The position numbers and the translations under genes are program-made. A DNA stretch of 12,870 nt from a virus, in the UHGV virus genome UHGV-2005248. One strand, 5' to 3'. Of the stretch, positions 90 through 12,870 are shown in pieces (position 1 is the first letter of the stretch; every line of letters begins with the position of its first letter). The notes under the pieces are model-generated. The model was not told the DNA's origin, made no database searches, and worked only from the letters and a program-made list of their open reading frames with translations.

Positions 90-144
90 TGGAGCACCTC
101 AAAAACACCATCATACACTAAATCAGTAAGTTGGCAGCATCACC
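1..144 (-). mobile_element. IS1 insertion sequence, terminal part (element continues past window start); 23-bp terminal inverted repeat at 122-144
   Basis: Reverse complement of 91-144 reads ggtgatgctgccaacttactgatttagtgtatgatggtgtttttgaggtgctcc, which I recognise as the IS1 end; reverse complement of 1-89 encodes the InsA N-terminus. Recognition from memory, not a database search. Confidence 0.8.
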
Positions 145-750
145 CCGAGGATTGAAAAGCTCAAATCTCTTGATGTTTCTTTTGTTTTTTGAGTAAAAGT
201 TTAAAGTGAAATATATTAGCACCTGTCTAAGATCGTAAACACTAAACTTCCTATCTCCTGATTTTATTTCCACAAGAACATTTGAATAATAAATATCGCC
301 ATATGAATTATTTATTACTCCGCATCCATCGAATTGTGGAGACACTTCAATTTGGTTTTCCATTCCATATCGAGACAAAATGTTTCTTGCTATTTCCCTT
401 ATGGCATTGTACTCAACCATGCTTAAGGGTAGCTTGAAGTTAGAACCGTAAGCGAACCGCTGTAGATATTCTTTTGTTTTTTCAAAAACAACCTGAAAAT
501 CAGCATTATGGAAGATATCATGTGCTGAAAGAATATTTCTGTCTAACGAATCATTCTGTATTGCCCTATATAAATTAAATGCGCACTCATTAACAAAGAC
601 GTTATTTGACCTATTAGCGCAGTCATCTAGAGGAGGATAAACGTCCTCGATGAGACTGCCGTTAATGATGCGTATGAAATTATTAGCATTTGGAAGCAAT
701 TGATTCCAAAATGAAGTGAATTTTCGAGAAAACGTTAATTCAGATATCAT
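118..750 (-). CDS. hypothetical RT-associated protein (candidate effector); 3' end disrupted by IS1, so the stop in the ORF track is not native
   Basis: 210-aa ORF whose start overlaps the RT stop by 4 nt. Its last 8 codons and stop (GDAANLLI, 118-144) are encoded by the IS1 terminus, so the native C-terminus is unknown. No hydrophobic TM segment. Weak D-x8-E-x-K pattern (GDIYYSNVLVEIK) that could be a PD-(D/E)xK nuclease motif. Confidence 0.55.
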   Translation of the reverse strand: MISELTFSRKFTSFWNQLLPNANNFIRIINGSLIEDVYPPLDDCANRSNNVFVNECAFNLYRAIQNDSLDRNILSAHDIFHNADFQVVFEKTKEYLQRFAYGSNFKLPLSMVEYNAIREIARNILSRYGMENQIEVSPQFDGCGVINNSYGDIYYSNVLVEIKSGDRKFSVYDLRQVLIYFTLNFYSKNKRNIKRFELFNPRGDAANLLI

Positions 751-2375
751 AGCGCATCCTCAAGATTTCTTGCGGTATGCCTTTTACTTGCCCAATCCCT
801 GTAAATCACCTCTACAAAGTTGAATGTTTTCTTATTATGCTCTCTCCAGTGCCGTCCTTCATCACCTAAGATGTAACTGGAAACGATCAATAGTCTTCTC
901 TGCAACGGATGCATTGCAGAGAAATTTTTTTTGATATCAGAAAGCCATGCGTAAGAATTAATTTTTGCCATTGACTGTGTAACTATGTTCTTGACTAAGA
1001 TGCTTTCTGGATTGTTATTGTATATTTCACTAAGGATTAGGGTGGATTTTTCTGAATTTTCTTTTGAGAGCATTCGGGCTACATAGGCTAAGTTGAGCTC
1101 AGTACTCAAAATATATGAATCTTGTTTAATTAGTGCAGTTATTTTATCAAGAATAATATCTTTGGTTTCTGTGCTTAATTTTTGCCAGTTGGAGTTAGCT
1201 ACTTGAATTATAGTTGTAAATATTGGATATAACTCATGCAAGTTATTAAACATTACTTTGAAAGCACTACTTATTATTTCATCTGATGTTGCTGAGAATG
1301 CCTTTATCAAATGCTTGCTAAAAGATTGGTTAATTTTTGATTTTTGTAACTCACTACTCAGCATAGCTAACAAGTCAAAATCTTTTAAAGATTCCTTTAT
1401 CTCTTCATATTCCTCTATCGCATTTGCTGAGTAAGGATCGAATCTTATAGGAAGACTCATAAATTTAGCCTTCATAGGAGATTCTTCATCTTCATCATTA
1501 CCATGCAACTTAGCTTTAGTTACTGAAAGGAACTCTTCTTTAGTAACAATATTGGTTTTTTGTTTCTGTAAAGTTAGCCCTTCATTTTCCATCAGTTTTT
1601 TACTAAGCAAAGTTAAAATCTTATGAGCATCCTCTCTAGAGTTACAAAAAATAACAAAGTCGTCGACATAACGCTTATAGTTGATTCTATTCATAGACAA
1701 TAATTTATCAATAGAATCTAGAGCTAGTTCTGCTAATATTCTAGAGGCAGGACATCCAACTGGTACTCCATATGATTTTGTTTCACTAAATGTCTGTAGT
1801 AATTTCTTGATTTTCCCAGAGTAATCTTTATTGGGGTCGACTCTATCTAACGCATTTTCTAAACGGTGGTGATAAATACGCGGATAGAAATCTGCTATAT
1901 CGCATGTAAGTACATACTTTATTTCATCGTTAGAACATTCAGAGATACTGTCTTCTTGATATTTTCTCCAAGAGATCTCTTTATCAAAAAGAGAACCATC
2001 AGCAAGGTTTGGTTTAAAGCGATATGAATAAACCTGCGTTTTAGTAGATCTATTCCTTTCAATATCATCAGCGATTTTTAAAACTAACCCAAGAAAAAAA
2101 GCATTCCAGAATGGATCAATTTGGGTCGCCCACCTGTAACCATAATAACCAATACTTGAAAAGCTATTAATTATGTTTGGTGGAATCTCGATCCTTTTAT
2201 TTTCAAAGTCATTAAATGTTTGCATTAATGCAGTTTTTACTTTCTCCTTATCATCTTCAAATAACCGACTTTCAAATGGGTAAGGGAAAATATCTGTATC
2301 GCCGTGCTTTATAATATTTTCCAATGCAAGCTCAAAGCAATTTTCTAGTTTACTACTATCAAACTCGTTACTCAT
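747..2375 (-). CDS. reverse transcriptase, Abi-class (AbiK/AbiA/Abi-P2-like) with long C-terminal extension
   Basis: 542 aa. RT palm motifs in canonical order: LTCDIADFYPRIYHH (motif A-like), YGVPVGCPASRILAELAL (motif B-like), YKRYVDDFVIF (YxDD catalytic motif), GLTLQKQKTNI (motif D/E-like). The pattern resembles AbiK as I recall it rather than retron or group II intron RTs. AAGGAG Shine-Dalgarno 7 nt upstream of ATG. Strongly AT-rich. Confidence 0.85.
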   Translation of the reverse strand: MSNEFDSSKLENCFELALENIIKHGDTDIFPYPFESRLFEDDKEKVKTALMQTFNDFENKRIEIPPNIINSFSSIGYYGYRWATQIDPFWNAFFLGLVLKIADDIERNRSTKTQVYSYRFKPNLADGSLFDKEISWRKYQEDSISECSNDEIKYVLTCDIADFYPRIYHHRLENALDRVDPNKDYSGKIKKLLQTFSETKSYGVPVGCPASRILAELALDSIDKLLSMNRINYKRYVDDFVIFCNSREDAHKILTLLSKKLMENEGLTLQKQKTNIVTKEEFLSVTKAKLHGNDEDEESPMKAKFMSLPIRFDPYSANAIEEYEEIKESLKDFDLLAMLSSELQKSKINQSFSKHLIKAFSATSDEIISSAFKVMFNNLHELYPIFTTIIQVANSNWQKLSTETKDIILDKITALIKQDSYILSTELNLAYVARMLSKENSEKSTLILSEIYNNNPESILVKNIVTQSMAKINSYAWLSDIKKNFSAMHPLQRRLLIVSSYILGDEGRHWREHNKKTFNFVEVIYRDWASKRHTARNLEDAL

Positions 2376-3552
2376 TCACATTCTCCTTAATAAAAATATA
2401 ATCTGAATACCACTGCATCATATCACGGCGTTTATCAATATATTGAGCATGATTATACGTACCTCTAATATTATTCTTATCTATATGAGCAAGCTGTATT
2501 TCTATCCAAGCCGAATCATATCCTTTTTCGTGGAGGATAGTAGATAAGGAATGTCGAAATCCATGACCAGTAAGTTTTCCACCATAACCAATACGCTTGA
2601 TAACTTGGTTAATACTCGCCTCACTCATAGGCTTGTTCGGATCGTTCCGCCCCGGAAAAACATAACTATACTTCCCTGTCATCATCTTGAGTTCATTTAG
2701 CAAATCTAACGCTTGAGTCGACAAAGGCACAAGGTGTGATCTGCGCATTTTCATCCTTTCAGCAGGAATTTCCCAAATAGCGTTATCTAAATCAAATTCT
2801 GACCATAATGCCGCACGTAATTCGATGGTTCTAACACCTGTAATCATGAGCAATTTCGTGGCAATCAGGACAAGCCGACTTCCGGTATATCCGTTTAAGG
2901 CGCGAAGAAAATCAGGTATCTCATTAGCCTTTAAGAACGGGAAATGATTTGATTGGTGTACATTGAGGGCGCTTGAAAGATCCGCAGCAGGGTTAAACTC
3001 AGCCCTTCCAGTAGCAATGGCATAGCGGAAAACTTCTGAGCATCGCTGCCGAACTTTGCGCATTTTTTCTAATGCACCGCGCTTTTCGATTTTACGCAGC
3101 ACATTAAGCAGTTCTAGCGGTTTAATCTCTCCCACTGGCCTTGTTCCCACATAAGGAAAAATGTCGTTCTTAAACGCTTCCATGATGTCTGATGCATATC
3201 CCGCCGACCATTTGGTAGACTTCTGTTGATGCCACTCTCTGGCTATCTTTTCGAAGGCGTTCTCTGACTCTGTTTGCAGAGCCAGCTTTTGCTCTTTTCG
3301 AACCTCACTAGGGTTCTTTCCTTCTGCCACAAGTTTTCGAGCTTCATCACGACGGGAACGAGCATCAGCAAGAGTGATCGTTGGGTAAACACCAAGCGAG
3401 ATCATTTTGGGTTTACCGGCATAGCGATAACGAAATCGCCAGCTTTTACTTCCATTTGGCTCTACAAGTAAAGACAACCCTTGCCCATCCCCAAGTGTAT
3501 AGGCTTTAGCTTCAGGTTTAGCACGGCGAATCTGCATATCATTTAGGGGCAT
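2368..3552 (-). CDS. int: tyrosine site-specific integrase, P4 family
   Basis: 394 aa. N-terminal Arm DNA-binding signature (AKAYTLGDGQGLSLLVEPNGSKSWRFRYRYAGKPKMISLGVYP ... RDEARKLVAEG). C-terminal catalytic region with HGFRHS box and terminal Tyr region RGTYNHAQYIDKRR. Immediately downstream of a tRNA 3' fragment in the same orientation. Confidence 0.92.
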   Translation of the reverse strand: MPLNDMQIRRAKPEAKAYTLGDGQGLSLLVEPNGSKSWRFRYRYAGKPKMISLGVYPTITLADARSRRDEARKLVAEGKNPSEVRKEQKLALQTESENAFEKIAREWHQQKSTKWSAGYASDIMEAFKNDIFPYVGTRPVGEIKPLELLNVLRKIEKRGALEKMRKVRQRCSEVFRYAIATGRAEFNPAADLSSALNVHQSNHFPFLKANEIPDFLRALNGYTGSRLVLIATKLLMITGVRTIELRAALWSEFDLDNAIWEIPAERMKMRRSHLVPLSTQALDLLNELKMMTGKYSYVFPGRNDPNKPMSEASINQVIKRIGYGGKLTGHGFRHSLSTILHEKGYDSAWIEIQLAHIDKNNIRGTYNHAQYIDKRRDMMQWYSDYIFIKENVNE

Positions 3553-3762: not shown

Positions 3763-4097
3763 TATAAGAATCCGCTTCTAATTCAAAGCATTACCCCATC
3801 AACACTGCGCTCACACGTCCCACCACATCAAAACATGTAAAGCCTTGCAAGCCATTGCGAGGCCTTATGTGTCTCAGTTTTGTCCCACCTTGTATTACGA
3901 CTTGCATAGCCAATGAAGATAAACGTGACGACAAACGGCGCAGCAGTCTTCTTTTCCTTCATACTTTCCCCACCCAGCATGCATACCTTCTACCATAACT
4001 GTAGTGAATGTCTGTTATGAGCGAAAATCGGAAGTTAGTGTCCTCATAATTTTGATAGAATGTTCGAACTTTTCCTTTCTAAGAAACTTGAGAAGTT

Positions 4098-4529
4098 ATG
4101 AAAAAATCACTCGTGCTAGTTATGTTTCTTTTCTCAGCTTGTGTTACTGCGAGTAATGACCTAGATCTATATGATAATCAAGGCAACGCCGTCGTTTATA
4201 TTTCACTTGATGACGAGTTGACTTTATATAGTTGGGAGGGTGAACCAAGCGCCTACCTTAAACATAACCAGAACAATGAGTTTGATGTTTATGGATTCAA
4301 TGGGAATCATTTAGGCTGGTTTACTAATGGTATGTTGATTGATCACGATGGCTATGTTGCCTGTGCAGTAAAAGACATGGTTACCACACCTAATTTGCCA
4401 TCACTTAAATCACTTAAGAGCCTCAAGCCTCTAAAATCGCTAACGGAACTTCCCCCTCTTTTCCCGCTGCTAAAAAATGCCTTTGGTCAGACAAATTGTT
4501 CTTTGTTAGTAGCTTCAGGTGTTGCATAA
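4098..4529 (+). CDS. hypothetical exported protein, possible lipoprotein, with short SLK tandem repeat
   Basis: 143 aa. N-terminal signal-peptide-like segment MKKSLVLVMFLFSAC with Cys after a lipobox-like FSA. AT-rich. C-terminal PSLKSLKSLKPLKSL repeat. Confidence 0.5.
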   Translation: MKKSLVLVMFLFSACVTASNDLDLYDNQGNAVVYISLDDELTLYSWEGEPSAYLKHNQNNEFDVYGFNGNHLGWFTNGMLIDHDGYVACAVKDMVTTPNLPSLKSLKSLKPLKSLTELPPLFPLLKNAFGQTNCSLLVASGVA

Positions 4530-4889: not shown

Positions 4890-5222
4890 TTAGACGTAAA
4901 TATCAATGGTGCCAGCGGTATTTGTATCGTCTTTTTTCTCTTCTTTTTTATCAGGCTGAACTGTCGCGTCTTCATTCTTTTTCTCTGCCTGCTGCCTTAA
5001 CAACTGCTCCAGTTGAGCCCTGAGGCTTTCAATTTGCTTCTGTACCAATGCAGCCATTTCTTTTTTCTGCTGTGTCGTCATCCCCTCTTCCGATGAGATT
5101 TTCCCAAGCTTTTCAGTCAGCACCTGAATTTGTCTTGTGATTTTGGCTATTTCTGATGTTCCTTCCGGGGCGGAGTTGTTTGAAATAACGGTTGAGGTAT
5201 TTCCCTGAATTGTGACAGACAT
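4890..5222 (-). CDS. flxA: FlxA-like protein (FliA-regulated small coiled-coil protein)
   Basis: 110 aa with a Q/K/E-rich coiled-coil middle (MAALVQKQIESLRAQLEQLLRQQAEKK); size and composition fit the FlxA family. Preceded by a near-consensus sigma-28 promoter and an AAGGAG Shine-Dalgarno. Confidence 0.7.
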   Translation of the reverse strand: MSVTIQGNTSTVISNNSAPEGTSEIAKITRQIQVLTEKLGKISSEEGMTTQQKKEMAALVQKQIESLRAQLEQLLRQQAEKKNEDATVQPDKKEEKKDDTNTAGTIDIYV

Positions 5223-5272: not shown

Positions 5273-6023
5273 ATCGTATTTCTTGTGTCATTAATTGTTT
5301 GATGTTCAGATTGTTTTCCTCGCGGGCTGGCGCGCCTCAGAAAGTAAAGCTTGTTGACAGGGGTAAACGTTCGGCAATAATTTTCTGCCGCATGCGGGTG
5401 TTGCATAAAACGTGCTACGTTCCTTTATCGACAGGTCAGGTCACCGCTCACCCGCCGACGAGAAAGCAACACTGACATGCTAAAGCAAAAAATAGATGAA
5501 TAAGTTGAGTTGTGCATATGTAGCCTGACCGTCACAAAGTATATGGTGTCTGTACCAGTAAGATGATGGCCGGACTCTTTAAAAACGAGCTGACCTGCAC
5601 AATACAGGATGGACTTAGCAATGGCTGCTCCTGGCACATAGCAGCCCTAGAGACAGTGGCGTAAAGTCATGGAGGGTCGGTGGCAGGAGATGCAAATCCT
5701 CTCATACAAAAATACGTAAAATCAATAACGGCTAGAGCTAGAAATCATTCAATACTCGCACTATCTAACATTTACCAGCCAACCGCAGCACGTCTTGCAT
5801 ACGACCTGTCTGCGGTTTCAATCACCTCTCACCACCAGTCCCATCAATAATAATTAAACAGCGCCTAAACAAAATAAATAACAACAAGTCAACAACCTCG
5901 ACAGGATGCCGATGGGATGATGAAGAGATAAGAAAGAATAACTAGTAAAGCCCTAAAACGTCAGCGTTCAGACGCGTTTTTTACTTAACCGGTAACAAAT
6001 ACGTTGTATCATAGCAACATAAA

Positions 6024-7973
6024 ATGATTGTTCTAAATCAGATTAACTCCTCACTTTTGTACAATGTCGCTTACAGGTATACCATGAAATCCGAGACGCT
6101 AACTGTCCAACAACTTTTTCAAGACCGCCGACAATACTGCGTTCCATTCTATCAACGTGCCTATGTATGGACTCAGCGAAACCAATGGTCAGCTCTACTG
6201 GAGGATATCCTAGAGAAAGCACAATCCCGGCTCTCGGGTACAAAACCAACTCCCCATTTCCTTGGTGCAGTGGTACTGGAACCTCAACCAAAAAAAGGAT
6301 TATTAGGTGTAGATTCCATACATATTATTGATGGTCAGCAACGATTGACCACTCTTCAATATGTTCTGGCATCCATCCGATTAGCATTACGTGCGACAGA
6401 TCTTTCCAACTTAGAGCCTCTCATTTCGTCTTGCCTGAAAAACTCAAACGAAGACACAATGCGAAATAAAGAAGTAGAGCGCTTCAAACTGTGGCCAACT
6501 TTTCGGGATCAAACTCATTTTATTCAAAGTTTTAATGTTGAAAATATTGACGATATCCGGAATGTATTCTCTGATAGTTTCACGCAGCATGGTACGTTGC
6601 GTAAGCATTTTAATCACCCGCCATCACTAGAAGCATTATGTTTTTTTACTGAAGCCTTTATAAAGTGGATTAAAATAGAAAATCACTCACCACGAGAAAA
6701 TGCTGTAGCATTAATTGAGGCTGTCTTGACGGATCTGAAACTAGTAAGCATATTTCTCGAGGCTGAAGATGACGCTCAAATAATTTTTGAAACATTAAAT
6801 GGCAGAGGTGCGGAACTTCATGCCACAGATCTTATTCGCAATTATATTTTTATGTGCGCTGAACATGAAAATATTAATGCTGTTGAATTATATGAGAATG
6901 AGTGGAAGATCTTTGAAGATACGTACTGGTCAGAAAGACAACGTCGTGGTCGTATTAATAAACCACGCATGGAGTGGCTAGTGCATGCGACATTGCAATC
7001 AGAAAGGCAACGTGAAATCGATCTGTCTCGTCTTTACAATGAGTATCGTGATTATGTAAGTAAGGACTTGCCTTCACAACGAGCAGATCTGCAAGTAAAG
7101 CGCCTCAAACAATATGCATCACAATATAAAGAATTGGTTGGTGGTTTTGGCACAACCCCCATCTCACACTTTGGACATCGCATCGCAGCCTATGATGTGA
7201 CGACACTTTATCCGCTTGCTTTGTTCATTTCGATAGCTAACATCGCCGATGATGAGAAAGCAGCCATGTATAATGATCTTGTCTCCTACGTAGTACGAAG
7301 AGCCGTATGTGGCCTGACGCCAAAGAATTACAACAATGTATTTATGAATGTATTGCGGCACTTGTCTAAAACGGAAATTTCCAGTGTTGAGTTACGTAAT
7401 ATCCTCAATAGCTTAAATGGCGAAGCCTCACGTTGGCCTGGGGACTCAGAATTTCTCAACGCTTGCATCAATGCTCCACTTTATCCTGGCAGGCTCGACG
7501 CACCGAAAATGCGCTCAATGTTAACGGAACTTGAAAGAGAACTTTGTCGCCAAGTGAAGACAGAGAAGCCTGATGTTCCAAATCTTTCTAACCTCGATAT
7601 CGATCATCTTATGCCTCAAAGTTGGTATTCCTGTTGGCCTCTCGAAAATGGTCATATGGTGACAAATTCAGATGCTACGGTATTGAACCAAATTGTTCTG
7701 TCTGGAACCGATCTTACCCCTGAACAGCTACTGGTAAGGAAACGGCAACAAGCGATAGCTACGTTGGGAAATCTAACATTGCTTAACCTTAGCGTAAACC
7801 GTTCTGTTCAGAATGCTGTATTTCTGAAAAAACGTGATGCTCTCATCGTCCACACCAATCTACGACTGAACATTCCACTTATAGTTAAGGATAAATGGGA
7901 TGAGGATGAAATCCTGGAGCGGGGTAAAAAGTTGGGGGAAATTGCATTGAAAGTATGGCCAAAACACGATTAA
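6024..7973 (+). CDS. GmrSD-like type IV (modification-dependent) restriction endonuclease, DUF262 + DUF1524 fusion
   Basis: 649 aa from the first ATG; the more likely start is ATG 6084 (MKSETLTV...), which has an AGG upstream. N-terminal DUF262/ParB-like signature including IIDGQQRLTTL. C-terminal His-Me finger (DUF1524-like) DIDHLMPQSW ... GNLTLLNLSVNRSVQN. Confidence 0.75.
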   Translation: MIVLNQINSSLLYNVAYRYTMKSETLTVQQLFQDRRQYCVPFYQRAYVWTQRNQWSALLEDILEKAQSRLSGTKPTPHFLGAVVLEPQPKKGLLGVDSIHIIDGQQRLTTLQYVLASIRLALRATDLSNLEPLISSCLKNSNEDTMRNKEVERFKLWPTFRDQTHFIQSFNVENIDDIRNVFSDSFTQHGTLRKHFNHPPSLEALCFFTEAFIKWIKIENHSPRENAVALIEAVLTDLKLVSIFLEAEDDAQIIFETLNGRGAELHATDLIRNYIFMCAEHENINAVELYENEWKIFEDTYWSERQRRGRINKPRMEWLVHATLQSERQREIDLSRLYNEYRDYVSKDLPSQRADLQVKRLKQYASQYKELVGGFGTTPISHFGHRIAAYDVTTLYPLALFISIANIADDEKAAMYNDLVSYVVRRAVCGLTPKNYNNVFMNVLRHLSKTEISSVELRNILNSLNGEASRWPGDSEFLNACINAPLYPGRLDAPKMRSMLTELERELCRQVKTEKPDVPNLSNLDIDHLMPQSWYSCWPLENGHMVTNSDATVLNQIVLSGTDLTPEQLLVRKRQQAIATLGNLTLLNLSVNRSVQNAVFLKKRDALIVHTNLRLNIPLIVKDKWDEDEILERGKKLGEIALKVWPKHD

Positions 7974-8223
7974 TGCAATTAATAAAATGATTATAGCGGC
8001 TTTACATTAGTAAGGCCGCTACTCACTATTAAATCCTTTAATTTGCAACAAGAACAGCAGTGTCAGCCCTAGGTTTCGGACTTTGTACCGCTTATCTTGT
8101 CTTCAAAAATCAGCTCGCATCCTGCACAGCTCAACGCATTACGTTGTAGATCGGTGTTCTGGTCATTTGTTGATACGCGTACATAGCCAATAAGCATGGT
8201 AGCTCCCCCTGACAAAAGCAGGA

Positions 8224-8559
8224 ATGATGCCATTTGCTCGTTATTTCTGCATTTTCATAAACGTTGGTTTTGGAGAAGGTGCTAACTGGGTTATGTTACC
8301 TGGAGGAATGATAATTCAGCGTGTTTATCTTGGATTTCCTGTTGGCACCAATGTAAGACACATAACTCTCCCCCGGTCGTTTACAACAACGAACTATTCC
8401 ATCTCAATTAACTGGAATGATATCGGTACTGTAACAACTGAAACACAATCGCCAGCAAATGTGGCGGTTGTTCATCAAACAAAATCATTAACAGGGGCCA
8501 GCATCTGGCAGGCAGGTCCCGGGGGATTTAATGTGGACATTATAGCGGTGGGGTATTGA
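8224..8559 (+). CDS. tail-fibre C-terminal fragment (alternative variable tip, S'-like), likely remnant
   Basis: 111-aa ORF ending 2 nt before the plus-strand tfa. Frame is closed upstream at 8200-8202. Position mirrors the tail-fibre tip genes of invertible segments; no recognisable motif. Confidence 0.35.
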
Positions 8560-8560
8560 T

Positions 8561-8989
8561 ATGTACGTATGGAGCGCTAAAGCAAATGGCTTTTTCCCCA
8601 TATCGGAGAAAGAAAAATTTGAGGCATCAGGTCTGTGGCCTGATGATGGTGTAATAGTCAGTGAGGAAGAACATAAAAAGTTATTTATGGATATTCCACC
8701 AGGAAAACAGATTGGAACACTGAATGGAAAACCAGCACTGATAGATATTCCTCAGCCGACCCAAAAGGAATTAATAGCTATTGCTGAAGTTAAAAAATCC
8801 CAATTACGGGAAAAAGCTGACAGTGAAATATCCTGGCGTCAGGATGCTGTTGATGCTGATATCGCAACTGATGAAGAAACTTCAACTCTCACCGAATGGA
8901 AGAAATACCGAGTGCTGCTGATGCGTGTTGATACTTCAACAGCACCCGATATTGAATGGCCTACGCCTCCGGCAGTTCAGGCCAGATGA
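8561..8989 (+). CDS. tfa: tail fibre assembly protein (Tfa chaperone)
   Basis: C-terminus [23 protein letters not shown] is the conserved Tfa C-terminal signature (compare TfaE ...[23 protein letters not shown] as I recall it). Confidence 0.85.
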
Positions 8990-9566
8990 CATCCGGCGCG
9001 GTGCTGGGATCTGTTGCCGTCACCGCGTCAATGTAATCCAGCACAGCGTTAAGCCGGGTTGTTTCTGCCTGCGTCAGTTTCCGCCCGGCCTGTAATTTCA
9101 GCTGAATCAGACTAATGGAAGCCATTGCTGCATCAATCAGTGACTGGCGCTGTGCTTCTGCCGCTTCTACTGCGGCGCTATGCTGTGCCTCAGTATCGGT
9201 CACCCATTTCTCACCATCCCATTTATCGTATGGCGTTAATGGGGCGATAGTGGTTGTATTTTCAGGGTAATCACCCGGAACTGTGATTTCTCTGGTATCT
9301 CCCGTTTCGGTACTATAGACAACTTCACCGCGATGGTCTGGCACATATTCCCATGAATTTAAATCTACAGAGCGACAGATTGCATAACCAGCTTTATGTA
9401 TACCTGGTGCATCCAAACAGGAACATGCCGGGATACCGACGCCGACAGCGAGATATTCAGTTGATGTAGAAATATATTCCCGCGTTTCACCATCATAATT
9501 ATAAATGATAATGTCTCCTGCTTTTATGGCAATGAGTTCGCTATTTAATATAGCTTTATTCATCAT
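8961..9566 (-). CDS. tfa: tail fibre assembly protein (second, divergent Tfa)
   Basis: 201 aa. Tfa-like core ([14 protein letters not shown]) and C-terminal [14 protein letters not shown]. Start overlaps the tail-fibre gene stop by 4 nt. Converges on and overlaps the plus-strand tfa by 29 nt. Confidence 0.8.
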
Positions 9567-10237
9567 GCGGCCCTCACAATATAATTAAAAGCGATGTTAC
9601 GAGGACGAGTTTCTGTACCTACATTTCCACTAATTTCACCATAACGTTTAACACTACGAGAGCTAAGAGCTCGTAGTGAGGAAGGCACCTTAAGACCGGG
9701 TTCGTCCGTTTTAACTATTCCCCCGTCACCGTATGTAGCCAGTATTCCTGGGTTTACTCCTTCCCGTGCACTTCCTGCGGCGAGTCCGTCCCCTGTCCAT
9801 AATTCCATATAGTGTGCATGGTCCAAAATTGTGTGTGGCTGCCAATTAAGCAAAGCGCGACCAGTATCAATCCCGCGACCGTCATCCCAGCCACGAATAA
9901 ATTCACCGCGTAAATCAGGCAATTTATTGGTCTGGTAAGCCTTTGCCAGTTCCGGGTATTCTTCAGCAGAAAAAGCCGCACCATTGCATTTCAGCCAGCC
10001 TGTTGGCGGAGTGGCTGAGGGCCACGGAACAGGCACACCAACGGGTAATGCCGAACCTTCTCCCAAACCAAGGTTTTCGAGAGCCGTTTTCACCGTGCCA
10101 TCCGATTTGATATCGCCAAACGGATTCTTGCGGCTTAACAGCAGCGCACGAAGCGCGGTAAGCAACTGGTCGTGCCGCCCCTTCTCCAGGCTGGCACCGG
10201 ATGCCTCCACCACGCTGCAAAGCTCCTCCTGCAACAT
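9563..10237 (-). CDS. tail fibre protein, C-terminal part with phage tail-collar domain (5' portion missing)
   Basis: Collar-domain-like motif [40 protein letters not shown]. The frame stays open upstream of the first ATG to 10339, then hits a stop beside N-gene-derived sequence. Confidence 0.7.
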
Positions 10238-10854
10238 GTCAAAGTAGTCATCATCCAGATCGGTGGCAGGCGTGCCTGTCTGGGGGTTACCACGGGTAAA
10301 ACCGTTCTTACCCGCGCCGAACTTATCCTTCTGCGCGGTTTACCGATAACGTCGTTCTGCACGAAATCCGCCACACCATCGATACTGAAACCGCTGAAGC
10401 TGTCACTGATGCAGTCATCCAGTGCAGAACAGGATGACATCAGCGTCTGCGCCGTCGCCGCACCTGATGTGGGGTAAGAGAGTTCTCCTGCTTCGACAAA
10501 CTTCAGGTCAAAGCGGACAATACGCCCTTCACTTTTCGATGTGCTGACCCGAACTTCCCCGTCAACACAGACTTTCAGCTCACCATATGTCGGGTGGACA
10601 AGCGTGCCGGGACCGGGTTTATTCAGCGCTTCAATCAGGCGATCGCGCTGGTCAAAGCAGTCATCTCCCACCACATAAGCTGTGATGGACGGGCGGAAAG
10701 TGACTTTTCCCAGATCTTCGGTATAGGGCTTGTCGCGGTTCGGGTATTCATGTGTTTCCACACGGCGACCGGTTCCCGCACTTTCTTCTTCAACCTTAAA
10801 CGGCACACCTCGAAATGACGCATCCTGTAGCCTGTCTTTCCACGTCATATACAC
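10135..10854 (-). pseudogene. Mu-like DNA circulation protein N, N-terminal fragment; reading frame degenerates after about aa 170
   Basis: N-terminus MYMTWKDRLQDASFRGVPFKVEE..RRVETHEYPNRDKPYTEDLGKV..AYVVGDD..RDRLIEALNKPGPGTLVHPTYG fits the DNA-circulation N-terminal domain pattern as I recall it. The last ~70 aa of the ORF are R/C/W/P-rich, out-of-frame read-through of tail-fibre sequence. Confidence 0.6.
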
Positions 10855-10860
10855 TCCGAA

Positions 10861-10889
10861 AATAAAAAAGCCACCTATTAGAAGGTGGC
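10861..10889 (-). terminator. rho-independent terminator after the 176-aa moron gene
   Basis: Stem GCCACC/GGTGGC (10870-10875 / 10884-10889) with 8-nt loop, followed on the minus strand by TTTTTTATT (10861-10869). Confidence 0.6.
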
Positions 10890-10909
10890 CTTGTAATGAA
10901 TTTTATTAA

Positions 10910-11440
10910 TTAGCGGGTCAGAAACAACGAATCTTTATACTTTTGCTGTTGTTCATTTAAATACTTAGCTGTTTCATCGCTGGCAAATGGAAATATTACC
11001 GTATTTTTAGGCATGGTAATTTCTTTTTTGTCCAGCGTCAGAGTAAACATAGGAACATACTGAGCAGAGTAACGCACCGCAGAAACGAGCTCTAGTTTAG
11101 ACTCTTCAATAACACTTAAATTATCCAGGCTAACTTTCTCTTCATCTTTTTTCTTTGACGCATTTAAAGTTTTTATTACTTTATTTAATTTCTCCTGAAA
11201 ATCCTCCTTAAAGTTTTCAGGATTGCCGTCGACAACAAGAATCTGTTCACCCTGATTATCTGGAAAAATAATCTTTGCACTTATCAATTTATTTTCTTTA
11301 TAAACATCACCAAGTTTTATGGCTCCTCCAGATAACTGAATAATATGTTCATCTTTAAAGGAGATGTTGCCAGAGATTATGAGAGATGAAAAAATAGCCG
11401 CTGCTCCAAGAATTACACTTGCTGTGATATAGCCTTTCAT
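10910..11440 (-). CDS. hypothetical membrane-anchored protein (AT-rich moron inside tail module)
   Basis: 176 aa. Single N-terminal hydrophobic helix ITASVILGAAAIFSSLIISG, then a K/E-rich soluble domain. Markedly more AT-rich than the flanking tail genes. Has its own terminator. Confidence 0.6.
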   Translation of the reverse strand: MKGYITASVILGAAAIFSSLIISGNISFKDEHIIQLSGGAIKLGDVYKENKLISAKIIFPDNQGEQILVVDGNPENFKEDFQEKLNKVIKTLNASKKKDEEKVSLDNLSVIEESKLELVSAVRYSAQYVPMFTLTLDKKEITMPKNTVIFPFASDETAKYLNEQQQKYKDSLFLTR

Positions 11441-11531
11441 TTTTCGCCTATTAACATTTTTCTAAATGTGCATTAATTCTATCACTCTATTTATGACTTA
11501 CAACCAGCAATACATGTGAGGGGAATCCTGG

Positions 11532-12455
11532 CTACCAAAATCGGGTATAGCCAACATCGTGATTTATATCAATGCCACTGGAGCGTGTTTCCGTAACCCG
11601 CATACCTGGTGGCATATTTATAAATGATACCTTGATCTCACCATCAACTTTTGGCGCGGTAGCTTTATTAATCATGAAGGGATTCGAGCCTGTGGCATCG
11701 GAGGCGTTGTTTGCCTGAGCCGGATCCACCGCCGGATAAGGAGTGTATCCCCGTGCCGGTATTCCCGTCCCATAAGCATCATAAGCACCCGCGCCCCACT
11801 GCGCAGAGTTAATGGCATCGACCGTGTCACCGGAACTGTCGGTAAACCACTCAATAATTGGCTTCAGCTTGTCCCACATATCCTGAAACCACTTAACAAC
11901 CGGCCCCCAGTTATTGATCACCATCCCCAGCGGCGACCAGGCAAAAACTTTCTTAAGGAGTTCCCAGCCAGCCTCAAAATAAGGACCAATGGTTTCCCAG
12001 AGCTTCTTGAAATAAGGTCCGACAACATCCCAGTTAGTGATAATTAATCCCGCAGCCAGGGCTATCGCCGTCGCAATCATGCCAATCGGCGTCATCGACA
12101 TGATCCTGCTGACAATGCTGATGGCACTGCCCACGCCCATCAATCCCAGTTTCAGAATCGCAAGACCGGCAGCAAGCCCGACGACGCCGCGAATAACCCG
12201 GGGATTTTCATCCGCAAACTTCGTGAATTTTTCCCCCAACTCCCCCAGCCATTGCGTGATATTTTTGGCGTCACCAGAAAATGCGCCGCCAATAGCCGCA
12301 AGGCCGTTAGTTGCGGTCCCCGTCATTGCCTCCCACAGGTTGGACAGCGTACCAAGCTGTGCCTGAACACGTTTATTCAGGCTGGCCTGTTTATTCATCT
12401 TTTGCTGGATCTGATCGTAACCATCCTTTCCTTTATCGATCAGCGCATTGACCAC
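11532..12455 (-). CDS. phage tail tape measure protein, C-terminal portion (5'-truncated)
   Basis: 307 aa from GTG. G/A-rich hydrophobic segments (GVVGLAAGLAILKLGLMGVGSAI, IGMIATAIALAAGLII) and W-rich repeats typical of tape-measure C-terminal regions. Frame is open only to 12518, so the N-terminal bulk of the gene is absent. Confidence 0.6.
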   Translation of the reverse strand: MVNALIDKGKDGYDQIQQKMNKQASLNKRVQAQLGTLSNLWEAMTGTATNGLAAIGGAFSGDAKNITQWLGELGEKFTKFADENPRVIRGVVGLAAGLAILKLGLMGVGSAISIVSRIMSMTPIGMIATAIALAAGLIITNWDVVGPYFKKLWETIGPYFEAGWELLKKVFAWSPLGMVINNWGPVVKWFQDMWDKLKPIIEWFTDSSGDTVDAINSAQWGAGAYDAYGTGIPARGYTPYPAVDPAQANNASDATGSNPFMINKATAPKVDGEIKVSFINMPPGMRVTETRSSGIDINHDVGYTRFW

Positions 12456-12555
12456 CTGAAGGGTTTCGGCATCATCACCAAATATTGCCTTAAGTACACC
12501 TGTTCGCTTACGGGATGTTTATGGAACGCTTTAACGAGTTATCGGAGTTACGCAA

Positions 12556-12870
12556 ATGCGCATGAATGTTTTCGAAATGGAAGGGTTTCTTCGTGGGAGA
12601 TGTGTACCGCGAGATCTGAAAGTAAATGAAACAGATGCTGAATACCTGGTGCGTAAATTCGATGCGCTTGAAGCTAAATGTGCAGCACAGGAAAACAAAG
12701 TAATACCAGTGTCAACTGAACTGCCACCAGCAAATGAAAGTGTTTTGTTATTCGATGCTAACGGAGAAGGCTGGCTAATTGGCTGGCGTTCTCTCTGGTA
12801 CACCTGGGGACAAAAAGAAACCGGAGAATGGCAGTGGACATTTCAGGTCGGGGACCTTGAAAACGTCAAT
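12556..12870 (+). CDS. hypothetical phage protein, DUF551-like (partial, runs off window end)
   Basis: Open frame from ATG 12556 (GGAG upstream) to the window end with no stop; not in the ORF track because it has no stop in the window. W-rich pattern ELPPANESVLLFDANGEGWLIGWRSLWYTWG resembles DUF551 prophage proteins as I recall them. Confidence 0.45.
   Translation, partial: MRMNVFEMEGFLRGRCVPRDLKVNETDAEYLVRKFDALEAKCAAQENKVIPVSTELPPANESVLLFDANGEGWLIGWRSLWYTWGQKETGEWQWTFQVGDLENVN

What the first reader, a model, noticed from the sequence alone, without database searches (positions are those of the whole stretch)
10861..11440. AT-rich membrane-protein moron inserted between tape measure and N genes
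A 176-aa ORF with a single N-terminal TM helix and a K/E-rich soluble domain sits where Mu-type tails have tape measure directly followed by N. It is much more AT-rich than its neighbours and has its own strong intrinsic terminator, the hallmarks of a moron. Prophage morons with small membrane proteins are frequently superinfection-exclusion or abortive-infection genes, and I do not recognise this sequence.
Basis: partly seen in the sequence, partly recalled or inferred. Interest (0 to 1): 0.6.

Follow-up and report, generated by a model that had tools for sequence, protein, structure and literature searches.

The report
Prophage cargo gene for envelope protein
A small, AT-rich accessory gene in the tail-gene cluster of a decayed E. 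coli prophage encodes a membrane-anchored periplasmic protein of an uncharacterised phage family; it is a typical "moron", plausibly blocks infection by other phages, and that function is untested.

Summary
A 176-aa ORF lies at 10910..11440 on the minus strand. It has one N-terminal hydrophobic helix and 34.5% GC, against 52-54% in the flanking genes. It sits between a tape-measure remnant and a truncated N/DNA-circularisation gene and is followed by a hairpin plus T-run terminator.

It is a real gene: dN/dS is 0.06-0.18. It is accessory, not structural. SfV, SfI, SfII, SfIV and YeP1 have nothing in this slot. SKA5/AH07, 720R4, one E. coli prophage and EPP-1 carry unrelated small genes there, and three of those four encode exported proteins.

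The protein belongs to PHROG 5485 (function unknown). About 79 clusters at 50% identity were found, with no Pfam, NCBIfam, PADLOC or PDB match. Relatives occupy the same slot in other Enterobacterales prophages. They also occur in an E217-like baseplate module and between Q and holin in a lambdoid prophage. A probable remote, lipoprotein-anchored homologue occurs in virulent Pseudomonas phages.

The closest analogue, not homologue, is the HK97 gp15 moron.

Best guess, about 0.4: superinfection exclusion at the cell envelope. No phenotype was tested. This is a new member of a known kind, of moderate interest.

The parts
10910..11440 (-). 176-aa ORF (identical to RefSeq WP_000679479.1, 'hypothetical protein'), a member of PHROG 5485
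   Evidence: dN/dS is 0.06-0.18 among homologues. The AlphaFold model built with 57 sequences has pLDDT 92.3.
11372..11437 (-). codons 2-23: N-terminal hydrophobic helix, read as an uncleaved signal anchor (N-in, C-terminal domain in the periplasm)
   Evidence: Hydropathy 2.08 over residues 4-22. AlphaFold helix 2-23. Lys2 lies on the N side. There is no small-x-small cleavage motif in this member. The topology is inferred, not shown.
10913..11344 (-). codons 33-176: soluble alpha/beta domain. It consists of a beta hairpin, two strands, a helix (74-93), two long strands and a C-terminal helix (149-171). Family motifs are GxVxLGxVYxE and VxYxSExxPxFxL.
10857..10892 (-). intrinsic-terminator-like hairpin (stem 10892..10867) plus T-run, immediately upstream of the ribosome-binding site of N
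   Evidence: An equivalent hairpin plus T-run is present in every occupied slot and in the empty slot.
11476..11503 (-). sigma-70 promoter-like site, TTGTAA-16 nt-TAGAAT, with TG two bases upstream of the -10 hexamer
   Evidence: This is a consensus match only (9 of 12 plus TG), and the number of such sites in the region equals the shuffle expectation.
11441..11531 (-). AT-rich (34% GC) spacer between the tape-measure stop codon and the ORF start. It contains the promoter-like site and an AGG Shine-Dalgarno-like triplet at 11447-11449.
   Evidence: The left boundary of the cassette relative to SfII lies just after the tape-measure stop codon.
11532..12455 (-). flanking gene: the 3' part (307 codons) of the tail tape-measure gene. 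The 5' part is deleted in this window.
   Evidence: The intact gene encodes 610 aa in strain GE3.
10135..10848 (-). flanking gene: the 5' part of the N/DNA-circularisation (baseplate hub) gene. It matches N only to about residue 172. After that it runs out of frame across a deletion into tail-fibre sequence.
   Evidence: The intact gene is 1329 nt in strains cM2a and GE3.

Best explanation
The feature is a moron-type accessory cassette of an SfV-like temperate phage (HK97-type head, Mu-type contractile tail) that now survives in a decayed E. coli prophage.

The cassette occupies a variable cargo slot between the tape-measure gene and the N/baseplate-hub gene. It consists of an AT-rich spacer with a candidate promoter, one ORF, and a terminator that abuts the ribosome-binding site of N.

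The ORF encodes a protein of an uncharacterised phage family, PHROG 5485. An N-terminal signal anchor is predicted to hold a compact alpha/beta domain of about 145 residues on the periplasmic face of the inner membrane.

The most likely role is superinfection exclusion at the envelope. The protein would be made from the prophage, and also by read-through late in lytic growth. Its periplasmic domain would interfere with an incoming phage after adsorption, for instance by engaging tail-tip or tape-measure components, or the membrane site they use, so that DNA does not reach the cytoplasm.

Shown here: gene reality, accessory status, slot variability, family breadth, predicted fold and anchor.
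Inferred: topology, expression from the lysogen, and the whole exclusion mechanism.
For: Real gene. dN/dS is 0.06-0.18. The AlphaFold model has pLDDT 92.3.

Accessory.
- The slot is empty in SfV, SfI, SfII, SfIV and YeP1.
- About 1088 of 5426 complete E. coli genomes have the SfV-type junction. Only 179 carry this gene, and 85 carry the SKA5-type gene.
- Strain GE3 has an apparently complete prophage with the identical protein.

Slot cargo is mostly envelope-directed. SKA5/AH07 and 720R4 encode proteins with classical signal peptides.

The family is mobile between accessory sites.
- It lies between tape measure and N at 34-58% identity, alongside two tape-measure alleles that are only about 40% identical to each other.
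- It lies in an E217-like baseplate module.
- It lies convergent to a TMP_3 tape-measure gene.
- It lies between Q and holin in a lambdoid prophage.

Every copy is AT-rich: 31-40% GC against 47-57% in its flanks.

A probable remote homologue of the domain is anchored by a lipobox in virulent Pseudomonas myoviruses: Foldseek E 2e-6, hhalign 71% probability and E 3.6e-5, four phages. Virulent phages do not carry host-fitness cargo, so this points to a phage-directed envelope role.

Architectural precedent. HK97 gp15 is a moron next to the tape-measure gene. It encodes an inner-membrane protein that blocks genome entry in a manner that depends on the incoming phage's tail (PMC3594210; layout).
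Against: No phenotype, expression or localisation data exist.

No literature was found. Searches for the accession and for the PHROG number returned zero papers.

There is no hit in PADLOC and no homology to HK97 gp15 (hhalign probability 0.3%). T4 Imm/Sp, P22 SieA, Cor and Llp were not compared.

The promoter is only a consensus match. Such matches are as frequent in shuffled sequence, and the upstream regions of homologues are not conserved.

The gene is co-oriented with the late tail operon and has no terminator upstream. Expression could therefore be purely late.

The hydrophobic N-terminus could be a cleaved signal peptide in some members (SGA-type sites), which would give a soluble periplasmic protein.

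One homologue lies next to ordinary chromosomal genes, although one side of that contig is missing.
Confidence: 0.4

Rival explanations
1. Lytic-cycle accessory for the phage's own benefit. The protein would be made late, together with the tail genes. It would act on the envelope of the producing cell, for example by masking or modifying a receptor or entry site so that progeny are not wasted on debris or on already infected cells. This is the logic of T5 Llp. It could alternatively tune envelope breakdown.
For: The gene has the same orientation as the late tail operon in nearly all contexts, with no terminator between the tape-measure gene and the ORF. Probable remote homologues of the domain occur as lipoproteins in virulent Pseudomonas phages, which have no lysogenic state. 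The gene has stayed in the same tail-module slot over deep divergence.
Against: It is dispensable for plaque-forming relatives. One homologue is transcribed convergently to the tail genes. Another lies between Q and holin. This rival overlaps the best explanation, because Llp-type proteins also exclude superinfecting phages.
Confidence: 0.2
2. Lysogenic-conversion or host-fitness factor unrelated to phages. It would be an envelope protein that changes stress tolerance, serum resistance, adhesion or similar traits, like lambda Bor or Lom.
For: It has moron features and envelope targeting. A family member lies in the Q-holin region of a lambdoid prophage. The gene is intact in this window although both neighbours are truncated. 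One homologue lies next to chromosomal metabolic genes.
Against: Probable remote homologues in virulent phages argue for a phage-directed role. The family recurs next to tape-measure, hub and spike genes in three different tail-module types. There is no similarity to any known virulence or fitness family.
Confidence: 0.2
3. Abortive-infection or toxic membrane effector. The protein would sense an infecting phage and then damage the inner membrane, killing the cell before progeny are released.
For: It is a small single-pass membrane protein encoded on a prophage.
Against: The protein has only one hydrophobic helix and a large, well-folded periplasmic domain. There is no partner gene, no match to PADLOC models, and no cytoplasmic part beyond residue 1 that could sense infection.
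Confidence: 0.07
4. Conserved structural or assembly component of the Mu-type tail or baseplate.
For: Its position is conserved between the tape-measure and hub genes down to 34% identity, and it lies in an E217-like baseplate module. Pairwise identity of the protein correlates with that of its neighbours (Spearman 0.72-0.83; the pairs are not independent).
Against: It is absent from infectious phages SfV, SfI, SfII, SfIV and YeP1, and is replaced by unrelated genes in others. It has a membrane anchor. The same protein variant pairs with tape-measure alleles that are only about 40% identical. It also occurs outside tail modules.
Confidence: 0.03

Closest known systems
HK97 gp15 moron (Juhala et al. 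2000; Cumby et al. 2012; reviewed in PMC3594210)
   Same: Both are single small AT-rich ORFs inserted in the tail operon next to the tape-measure gene. Both are followed by a GC-rich hairpin plus T-run that abuts the start of the next tail gene (compared). Both are absent from close relatives. Both products are predicted or shown to be inner-membrane proteins. gp15 blocks genome entry in a way that depends on the tail of the incoming phage.
   Different: They are not homologous (hhalign probability 0.3%). gp15 has 62 aa and is YebO-like, with almost no periplasmic domain. This protein has 176 aa with a folded periplasmic domain of about 145 residues. The gp15 moron lies upstream of the tape-measure gene in a siphovirus, whereas this cassette lies downstream of it in a contractile-tail module. 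The function of gp15 is demonstrated; the function here is not.
T4 Sp (and Imm) and T5 Llp or phi80/N15 Cor: envelope-anchored exclusion proteins (established knowledge; listed in PMC11436027)
   Same: These are small phage-encoded proteins tethered to the envelope by an N-terminal helix (Sp) or a lipid anchor (Llp, Cor). Each has a periplasmic domain that neutralises a step of entry by an incoming phage. This family likewise shows both kinds of anchor: a transmembrane helix here and a lipobox in Pseudomonas phage ventosus.
   Different: Sequence and fold similarity to these proteins was not tested here, because their sequences were not fetched. No target (tail lysozyme, FhuA or other) is known for this family.
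PHROG 5485 (and its fragment family PHROG 34391), function unknown
   Same: The window protein matches the profile end to end (E 3.8e-108, residues 1-176 of 176). All 57 diverse relatives also match it. This is true family membership.
   Different: The family carries no annotation, so membership says nothing about function.
Defence or cargo hotspots of temperate phages and satellites (for example the P2/P4 hotspots and the lambdoid Q-S region; established knowledge)
   Same: A fixed intergenic position flanked by conserved genes holds alternative, unrelated, compositionally atypical genes in otherwise collinear genomes.
   Different: The cargo here consists of single small genes, three of four for exported proteins, not recognisable multi-gene defence systems. 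No anti-phage activity has been shown for any of them.

Membership tests
Moron (Juhala/Hendrix definition, as restated in PMC3594210 and PMC5567305) | Present in some but absent from other closely related phage genomes at the same position | tested here: met
   The slot is empty in SfV, SfI, SfII, SfIV and YeP1. It is occupied by this gene in 179 E. coli genomes and by unrelated genes elsewhere.
Moron (Juhala/Hendrix definition, as restated in PMC3594210 and PMC5567305) | Nucleotide composition differs from that of the surrounding genes | tested here: met
   34.5% GC against 51.5% and 53.8% in the flanking genes. The same contrast holds in every homologous locus.
Moron (Juhala/Hendrix definition, as restated in PMC3594210 and PMC5567305) | Own promoter upstream | tested here: inconclusive
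   TTGTAA-16 nt-TAGAAT with an upstream TG lies at 11503..11476. The count of such sites equals the shuffle expectation, and the upstream regions of homologues are not conserved.
Moron (Juhala/Hendrix definition, as restated in PMC3594210 and PMC5567305) | Factor-independent terminator downstream | tested here: met
   A hairpin plus T-run lies at 10892..10857. A similar terminator is also present in empty slots.
Moron (Juhala/Hendrix definition, as restated in PMC3594210 and PMC5567305) | Expressed from the repressed prophage | not testable with these tools
   This needs RNA-seq, 5'-RACE or reporter fusions in a lysogen.
Superinfection-exclusion protein | Located in the cell envelope | tested here: inconclusive
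   Only prediction is available: one N-terminal hydrophobic helix and a lipobox in the remote homologue. No localisation data exist.
Superinfection-exclusion protein | Expression blocks infection by other phages at or before DNA entry, without killing the cell | not testable with these tools
   This needs plating, adsorption and DNA-entry assays.
HK97 gp15 / YebO family | Sequence homology to gp15 or YebO | tested here: not met
   hhalign of the 57-sequence profile against HK97 gp15 gave probability 0.3%.
PHROG 5485 | Full-length match to the family profile | tested here: met
   E 3.8e-108, residues 1-176 against profile positions 1-176 of 176. All 57 of 57 relatives match.
Mu-type tail structural gene set | Conserved in infectious relatives and matching a known tail or baseplate family | tested here: not met
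   It is absent from SfV, SfI, SfII, SfIV and YeP1. It has no Pfam or tail-PHROG match.
Known anti-phage defence systems (PADLOC-DB 2.0) | Match to any defence-protein model | tested here: not met
   0 families at E up to 1.

The most novel reading that the evidence does not exclude
The junction between the tape-measure and hub genes of Mu-type contractile tails is a dedicated, long-lived hotspot for envelope-directed anti-phage cargo. PHROG 5485 would then be a new and widespread family of exclusion proteins with a fold not seen in the PDB. It would be anchored either by a transmembrane helix (temperate Enterobacterales phages) or by a lipid (virulent Pseudomonas phages), and would block DNA delivery by contractile-tail phages through contact with tail-tip or tape-measure components.
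Probability: 0.3. Interest if true: 0.65.

Novelty: new member of a known kind. Interest (0 to 1): 0.42.

Why it matters
Few exclusion proteins that act at the inner membrane are known, and how they work is poorly understood. gp15, SieA, Imm and Sp remain the main examples.

If this gene excludes phages, it would add a structurally new family. That family has a confident model, two kinds of anchor, and a natural set of matched phages with and without it, which makes mechanism studies tractable.

Independently of function, the comparison defines a variable cargo slot in SfV-like phages with at least five alternative small genes. About 1088 of 5426 complete E. coli genomes carry this type of junction. 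The slot is a compact place to look for prophage-encoded envelope functions that affect phage therapy and the host range of serotype-converting phages.

Tried and rejected
Searches with no useful result.
- Sequence libraries gave nothing: Pfam, NCBIfam and PADLOC, and Pfam on all 57 relatives.
- A PDB sequence-profile search gave only chance hits at E of about 0.7-0.8.
- The AFDB50 fold library was unavailable.
- tblastn of the protein against 50,697 phage records found nothing. The gene is known only from prophages and metagenomic viral contigs.
- Paper searches for the accession, for the PHROG number and for the slot found nothing specific.
- Rfam and tRNA scans of the window were empty.
- A repeat search found no flanking direct repeats or insertion scars.

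Homology tests that failed.
- HK97 gp15 is not homologous.
- The SKA5-type and 720R4-type slot proteins are not homologous.
- The Tai and Tab tail-assembly-blocking defences were read about and set aside. They sit at other loci and act in the cytoplasm.

Technical dead ends.
- The profile search in the word-indexed protein database recovered few distant relatives.
- Locus searches with the broad alignment failed for lack of a conserved stretch.

Rejected ideas.
- A structural tail gene, for the reasons given under the rivals.
- A recent one-off acquisition from a low-GC donor. All relatives are AT-rich, down to 34% identity.
- A lipoprotein in this window, because the protein has no cysteine.

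Full report
**What is in the sequence**

The window is E. coli DNA. It carries the remains of an SfV-like prophage, with an HK97-type head and a Mu-type contractile tail, of the kind found next to thrW/proA.

On the minus strand, an ATG-initiated ORF of 176 codons lies at 10910..11440.
- Upstream at 11532..12455 are the last 307 codons of a tape-measure gene (PHROG 17727 and PHROG 28).
- Downstream at 10135..10854 is the 5' part of the N/DNA-circularisation baseplate-hub gene (Pfam DNA_circ_N 1e-34, PHROG 184).
- Both neighbours are truncated in this window, whereas the ORF and its flanking signals are intact.

The ORF is 34.5% GC (GC3 30.5%), against 51.5% and 53.8% for the neighbours.

Residues 4-22 form the only hydrophobic stretch. 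The rest of the protein is polar, with a K/E-rich helix and linker at about residues 75-103. The protein has no Cys or Trp.

A 10-bp hairpin with 5 G-C pairs, followed by a T-run, lies at 10892..10857, just before the ribosome-binding site of N.

A promoter-like site, TTGTAA-16 nt-TAGAAT with an upstream TG, lies at 11503..11476. Such matches are no more frequent here than in shuffled sequence.

**Is it a gene?**

Yes.
- The identical protein is annotated in RefSeq as WP_000679479.1.
- The 677-bp cassette is present at 99% identity or more in 179 of 5426 complete E. coli genomes.
- Homologues from prophages of other genera, taken in pairs with unsaturated synonymous divergence, give dN/dS of 0.06-0.18.
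- AlphaFold with a 57-sequence alignment gives a confident model: mean pLDDT 92.3 and pTM 0.77.

The model has an N-terminal helix (residues 2-23) and a short linker. These are followed by a compact alpha/beta domain: a beta hairpin (33-42), two strands (46-58 and 65-72), a helix (74-93), two long strands (114-126 and 132-143), and a C-terminal helix (149-171).

**Is it accessory or structural?**

It is accessory.

Empty slots. In the plaque-forming phages SfV, SfI and SfII the flanking DNA is 95% identical to the window, but about 620 bp are missing. The tape-measure gene is followed directly by a hairpin plus T-run and then by N. SfIV and Yersinia phage YeP1 also have no gene in this position.

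Other cargo in the same slot.
- Phage SKA5 and Pantoea phage AH07 carry a 164-170-aa protein with a classical signal peptide.
- vB_EcoM-720R4 carries a different 162-aa secreted protein.
- An E. coli prophage in strain GN05505 carries an antisense 'OB-fold protein'.
- Edwardsiella phage EPP-1 carries a bacterial PH-domain protein.
- The two of these tested, the SKA5-type and 720R4-type proteins, are not homologous to the window protein.

Frequencies in E. coli. About 1088 complete genomes have the SfV-type junction. Of these, 179 carry this gene and 85 carry the SKA5-type gene. Subtracting these and other insert-bearing junctions from the 809 genomes with full-length junction matches suggests that most slots are empty.

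Cassette boundaries. The alignment places the left boundary just after the tape-measure stop codon and the right boundary inside the terminator stem. The T-run and the ribosome-binding site of N are shared by all versions.

The gene is not confined to wrecks. Strain GE3 has an apparently complete prophage with the identical protein between an intact 610-aa tape measure and an intact N.

**The family**

The protein matches no Pfam, NCBIfam or PADLOC model. It matches PHROG 5485 (function unknown) end to end.

An exhaustive profile search of 1.84 billion cluster representatives found 79 proteins at E up to 0.001. Apart from a number of short fragments, they are 165-200 aa long and have the same architecture. 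All 57 that I aligned match PHROG 5485.

Conserved motifs are N-x-[IV], then G-x-V-x-L-G-x-V-Y-x-E just after the anchor, V-x-Y-x-S-E-x-x-P-x-F-x-L in the long hairpin, and a C-terminal F-[IL]-K.

Named members come from Escherichia, Leclercia, Lelliottia, Edwardsiella, Mangrovibacter and Citrobacter.

Genomic contexts.
- Fifteen viral or prophage loci (41-55% identity) have the gene between tape measure and N. These modules carry two tape-measure alleles that are only about 40% identical to each other.
- Two further relatives at 34% identity occupy the same slot in modules whose N protein is 27-43% identical.
- A 30%-identical member lies in an E217/Pam3-like baseplate module, between hub and spike genes.
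- A 23%-identical member lies convergent to a TMP_3 tape-measure gene.
- A Citrobacter-type member (33-35% identity) lies between antiterminator Q and the holin of a lambdoid prophage.
- One member lies beside chromosomal metabolic genes, on a contig that ends at the gene.

Every copy is AT-rich, at 31-40% GC against 47-57% in its flanks. The low GC is therefore a persistent property of the family and not the trace of a recent transfer.

All tail-module copies are followed by a strong hairpin plus T-run.

**Fold comparisons**

Among predicted viral structures there is one significant match, a 144-aa 'lipoprotein' of the virulent Pseudomonas phage ventosus (Foldseek E 2e-6, TM 0.64).
- I located it as CNR37_00111 in MG018930.
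- It begins with a lipobox (LLTGC), followed by TKDTIIHTRSAVVNVGEVTAE, and ends in FSYLK. These echo the family motifs.
- Profile comparison supports remote homology over 131 columns (hhalign probability 71%, E 3.6e-5).
- Relatives of it occur in three more virulent Pseudomonas myoviruses.
- The domain is therefore tethered to the envelope in two different ways and is also kept by phages that never lysogenise.

**How it most likely works**

*Topology.* Inferred topology is N-in, with the folded domain in the periplasm.
- Lys2 precedes a hydrophobic helix of about 19 residues, which is longer than a typical signal-peptide core.
- This member has no small-x-small cleavage site, although some relatives have SGA-type sites.

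*Closest precedent.* HK97 gp15 is also a moron next to the tape-measure gene, with a nearly identical hairpin and T-run abutting the next tail gene. It inserts in the inner membrane and blocks genome entry in a manner that depends on the tail of the incoming phage (PMC3594210). It is not homologous.

*Best estimate.* My best estimate, at about 0.4, is envelope-level superinfection exclusion. Four observations support it:
- the cassette architecture;
- the envelope bias of the slot's alternative cargo;
- the family's recurrent placement next to tape-measure, hub and spike genes;
- its presence in virulent phages.

In a phage whose late transcription is driven by an antiterminator, the terminator would stop only transcripts that are not antiterminated. 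An antitermination protein is annotated in the GE3 prophage. That is the moron logic, but it is inferred here.

*Rivals.*
- A late-expressed accessory that serves the phage's own cycle, about 0.2. This partly overlaps the best explanation.
- A host-fitness conversion factor, about 0.2.
- An abortive-infection effector, about 0.07.
- A structural tail component, about 0.03.

**Novelty and value**

The kind of element is well known. The specific protein family is uncharacterised, has no solved structural relative, and has no literature that I could find.

The definition of a multi-allelic cargo slot between the tape-measure and hub genes in a common E. coli/Shigella phage group is a useful by-product.

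I rate it a new member of a known kind, with moderate interest.

Noticed in passing
window 118-3552 (minus strand): A P4-like tyrosine integrase (2368..3552) is followed by a reverse transcriptase (747..2375; PADLOC Drt8, E 4.9e-166) and a PD-(D/E)XK partner (118..750; RTasPDDEXK, E 6.7e-61). Together they form a DRT type 8 defence islet on an integrative element.
   Followed up: partly
window 6024-7973 (plus strand): A 649-aa GmrSD/DUF262 type IV modification-dependent restriction enzyme (PADLOC mREase_IV, E = 0; Pfam GmrSD_N and GmrSD_C) sits inside the prophage remnant. A 4-fold beta-flower protein (4098..4529) and an FlxA-like protein (4890..5222) lie nearby.
   Followed up: partly
window 9563-10854 (minus strand): The N gene matches N only to about residue 172. 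It then runs out of frame into an ORF with a phage tail-collar domain (9563..10237). The rest of N and the baseplate genes seen in strains cM2a and GE3 have been deleted.
   Followed up: partly
window about 12455-12870: The tape-measure gene is cut to its last 307 codons and joined near 12510 to yfdR-like phage DNA. No complete E. coli genome in the collection spans this junction (0 places with at least 80% coverage). This particular deletion may therefore be specific to the source strain.
   Followed up: partly
L006 2506-3018; L008 2636-3130; L036 1894-2382; L034 1407-1793; L009 2534-2911: The same slot between tape measure and N holds at least four other unrelated cargo genes. Two are distinct secreted proteins of unknown function: the SKA5/AH07 type, present in 85 E. 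coli genomes, and the 720R4 type. The other two are an antisense 'OB-fold protein' and a bPH_1 domain protein.
   Followed up: partly
L015 about 5961-5977, L016, L018, L020 about 5961-5979, L026 about 3979-4002 (between the tape-measure stop codon and the homologue start): Several homologous loci carry a short palindrome or hairpin (for example GCTAT-N7-ATAGC) upstream of the gene, with folding z-scores down to -3.4. The window's own upstream region has none (z +0.75). This could be an operator or a 5'-UTR structure.
   Followed up: no
all family loci (L002-L029) and window 10910-11440: The family keeps 31-40% GC in hosts and flanks of 47-57% GC, even between members only 34% identical. This suggests a maintained compositional constraint and not recent import. 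Silencing or regulation of AT-rich DNA is one possibility.
   Followed up: no
L044 1995-2429 (MG018930 51995-52429, minus strand): A probable remote homologue of the domain occurs as a lipobox-bearing protein in the virulent Pseudomonas phage ventosus. Relatives occur in UAVern, Bitten and vB_PF_Y1-MI. It lies among small early or middle genes, not in the tail module.
   Followed up: partly
window 8069-9566: Two tail-fibre-assembly genes face each other (8561..8989 plus strand; 8961..9566 minus strand), next to a gp53-like fibre tip (8224..8559). In related strains this region is adjacent to a pin-type recombinase or a fragment of one. It looks like the remnant of an invertible host-range segment.
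   Followed up: no
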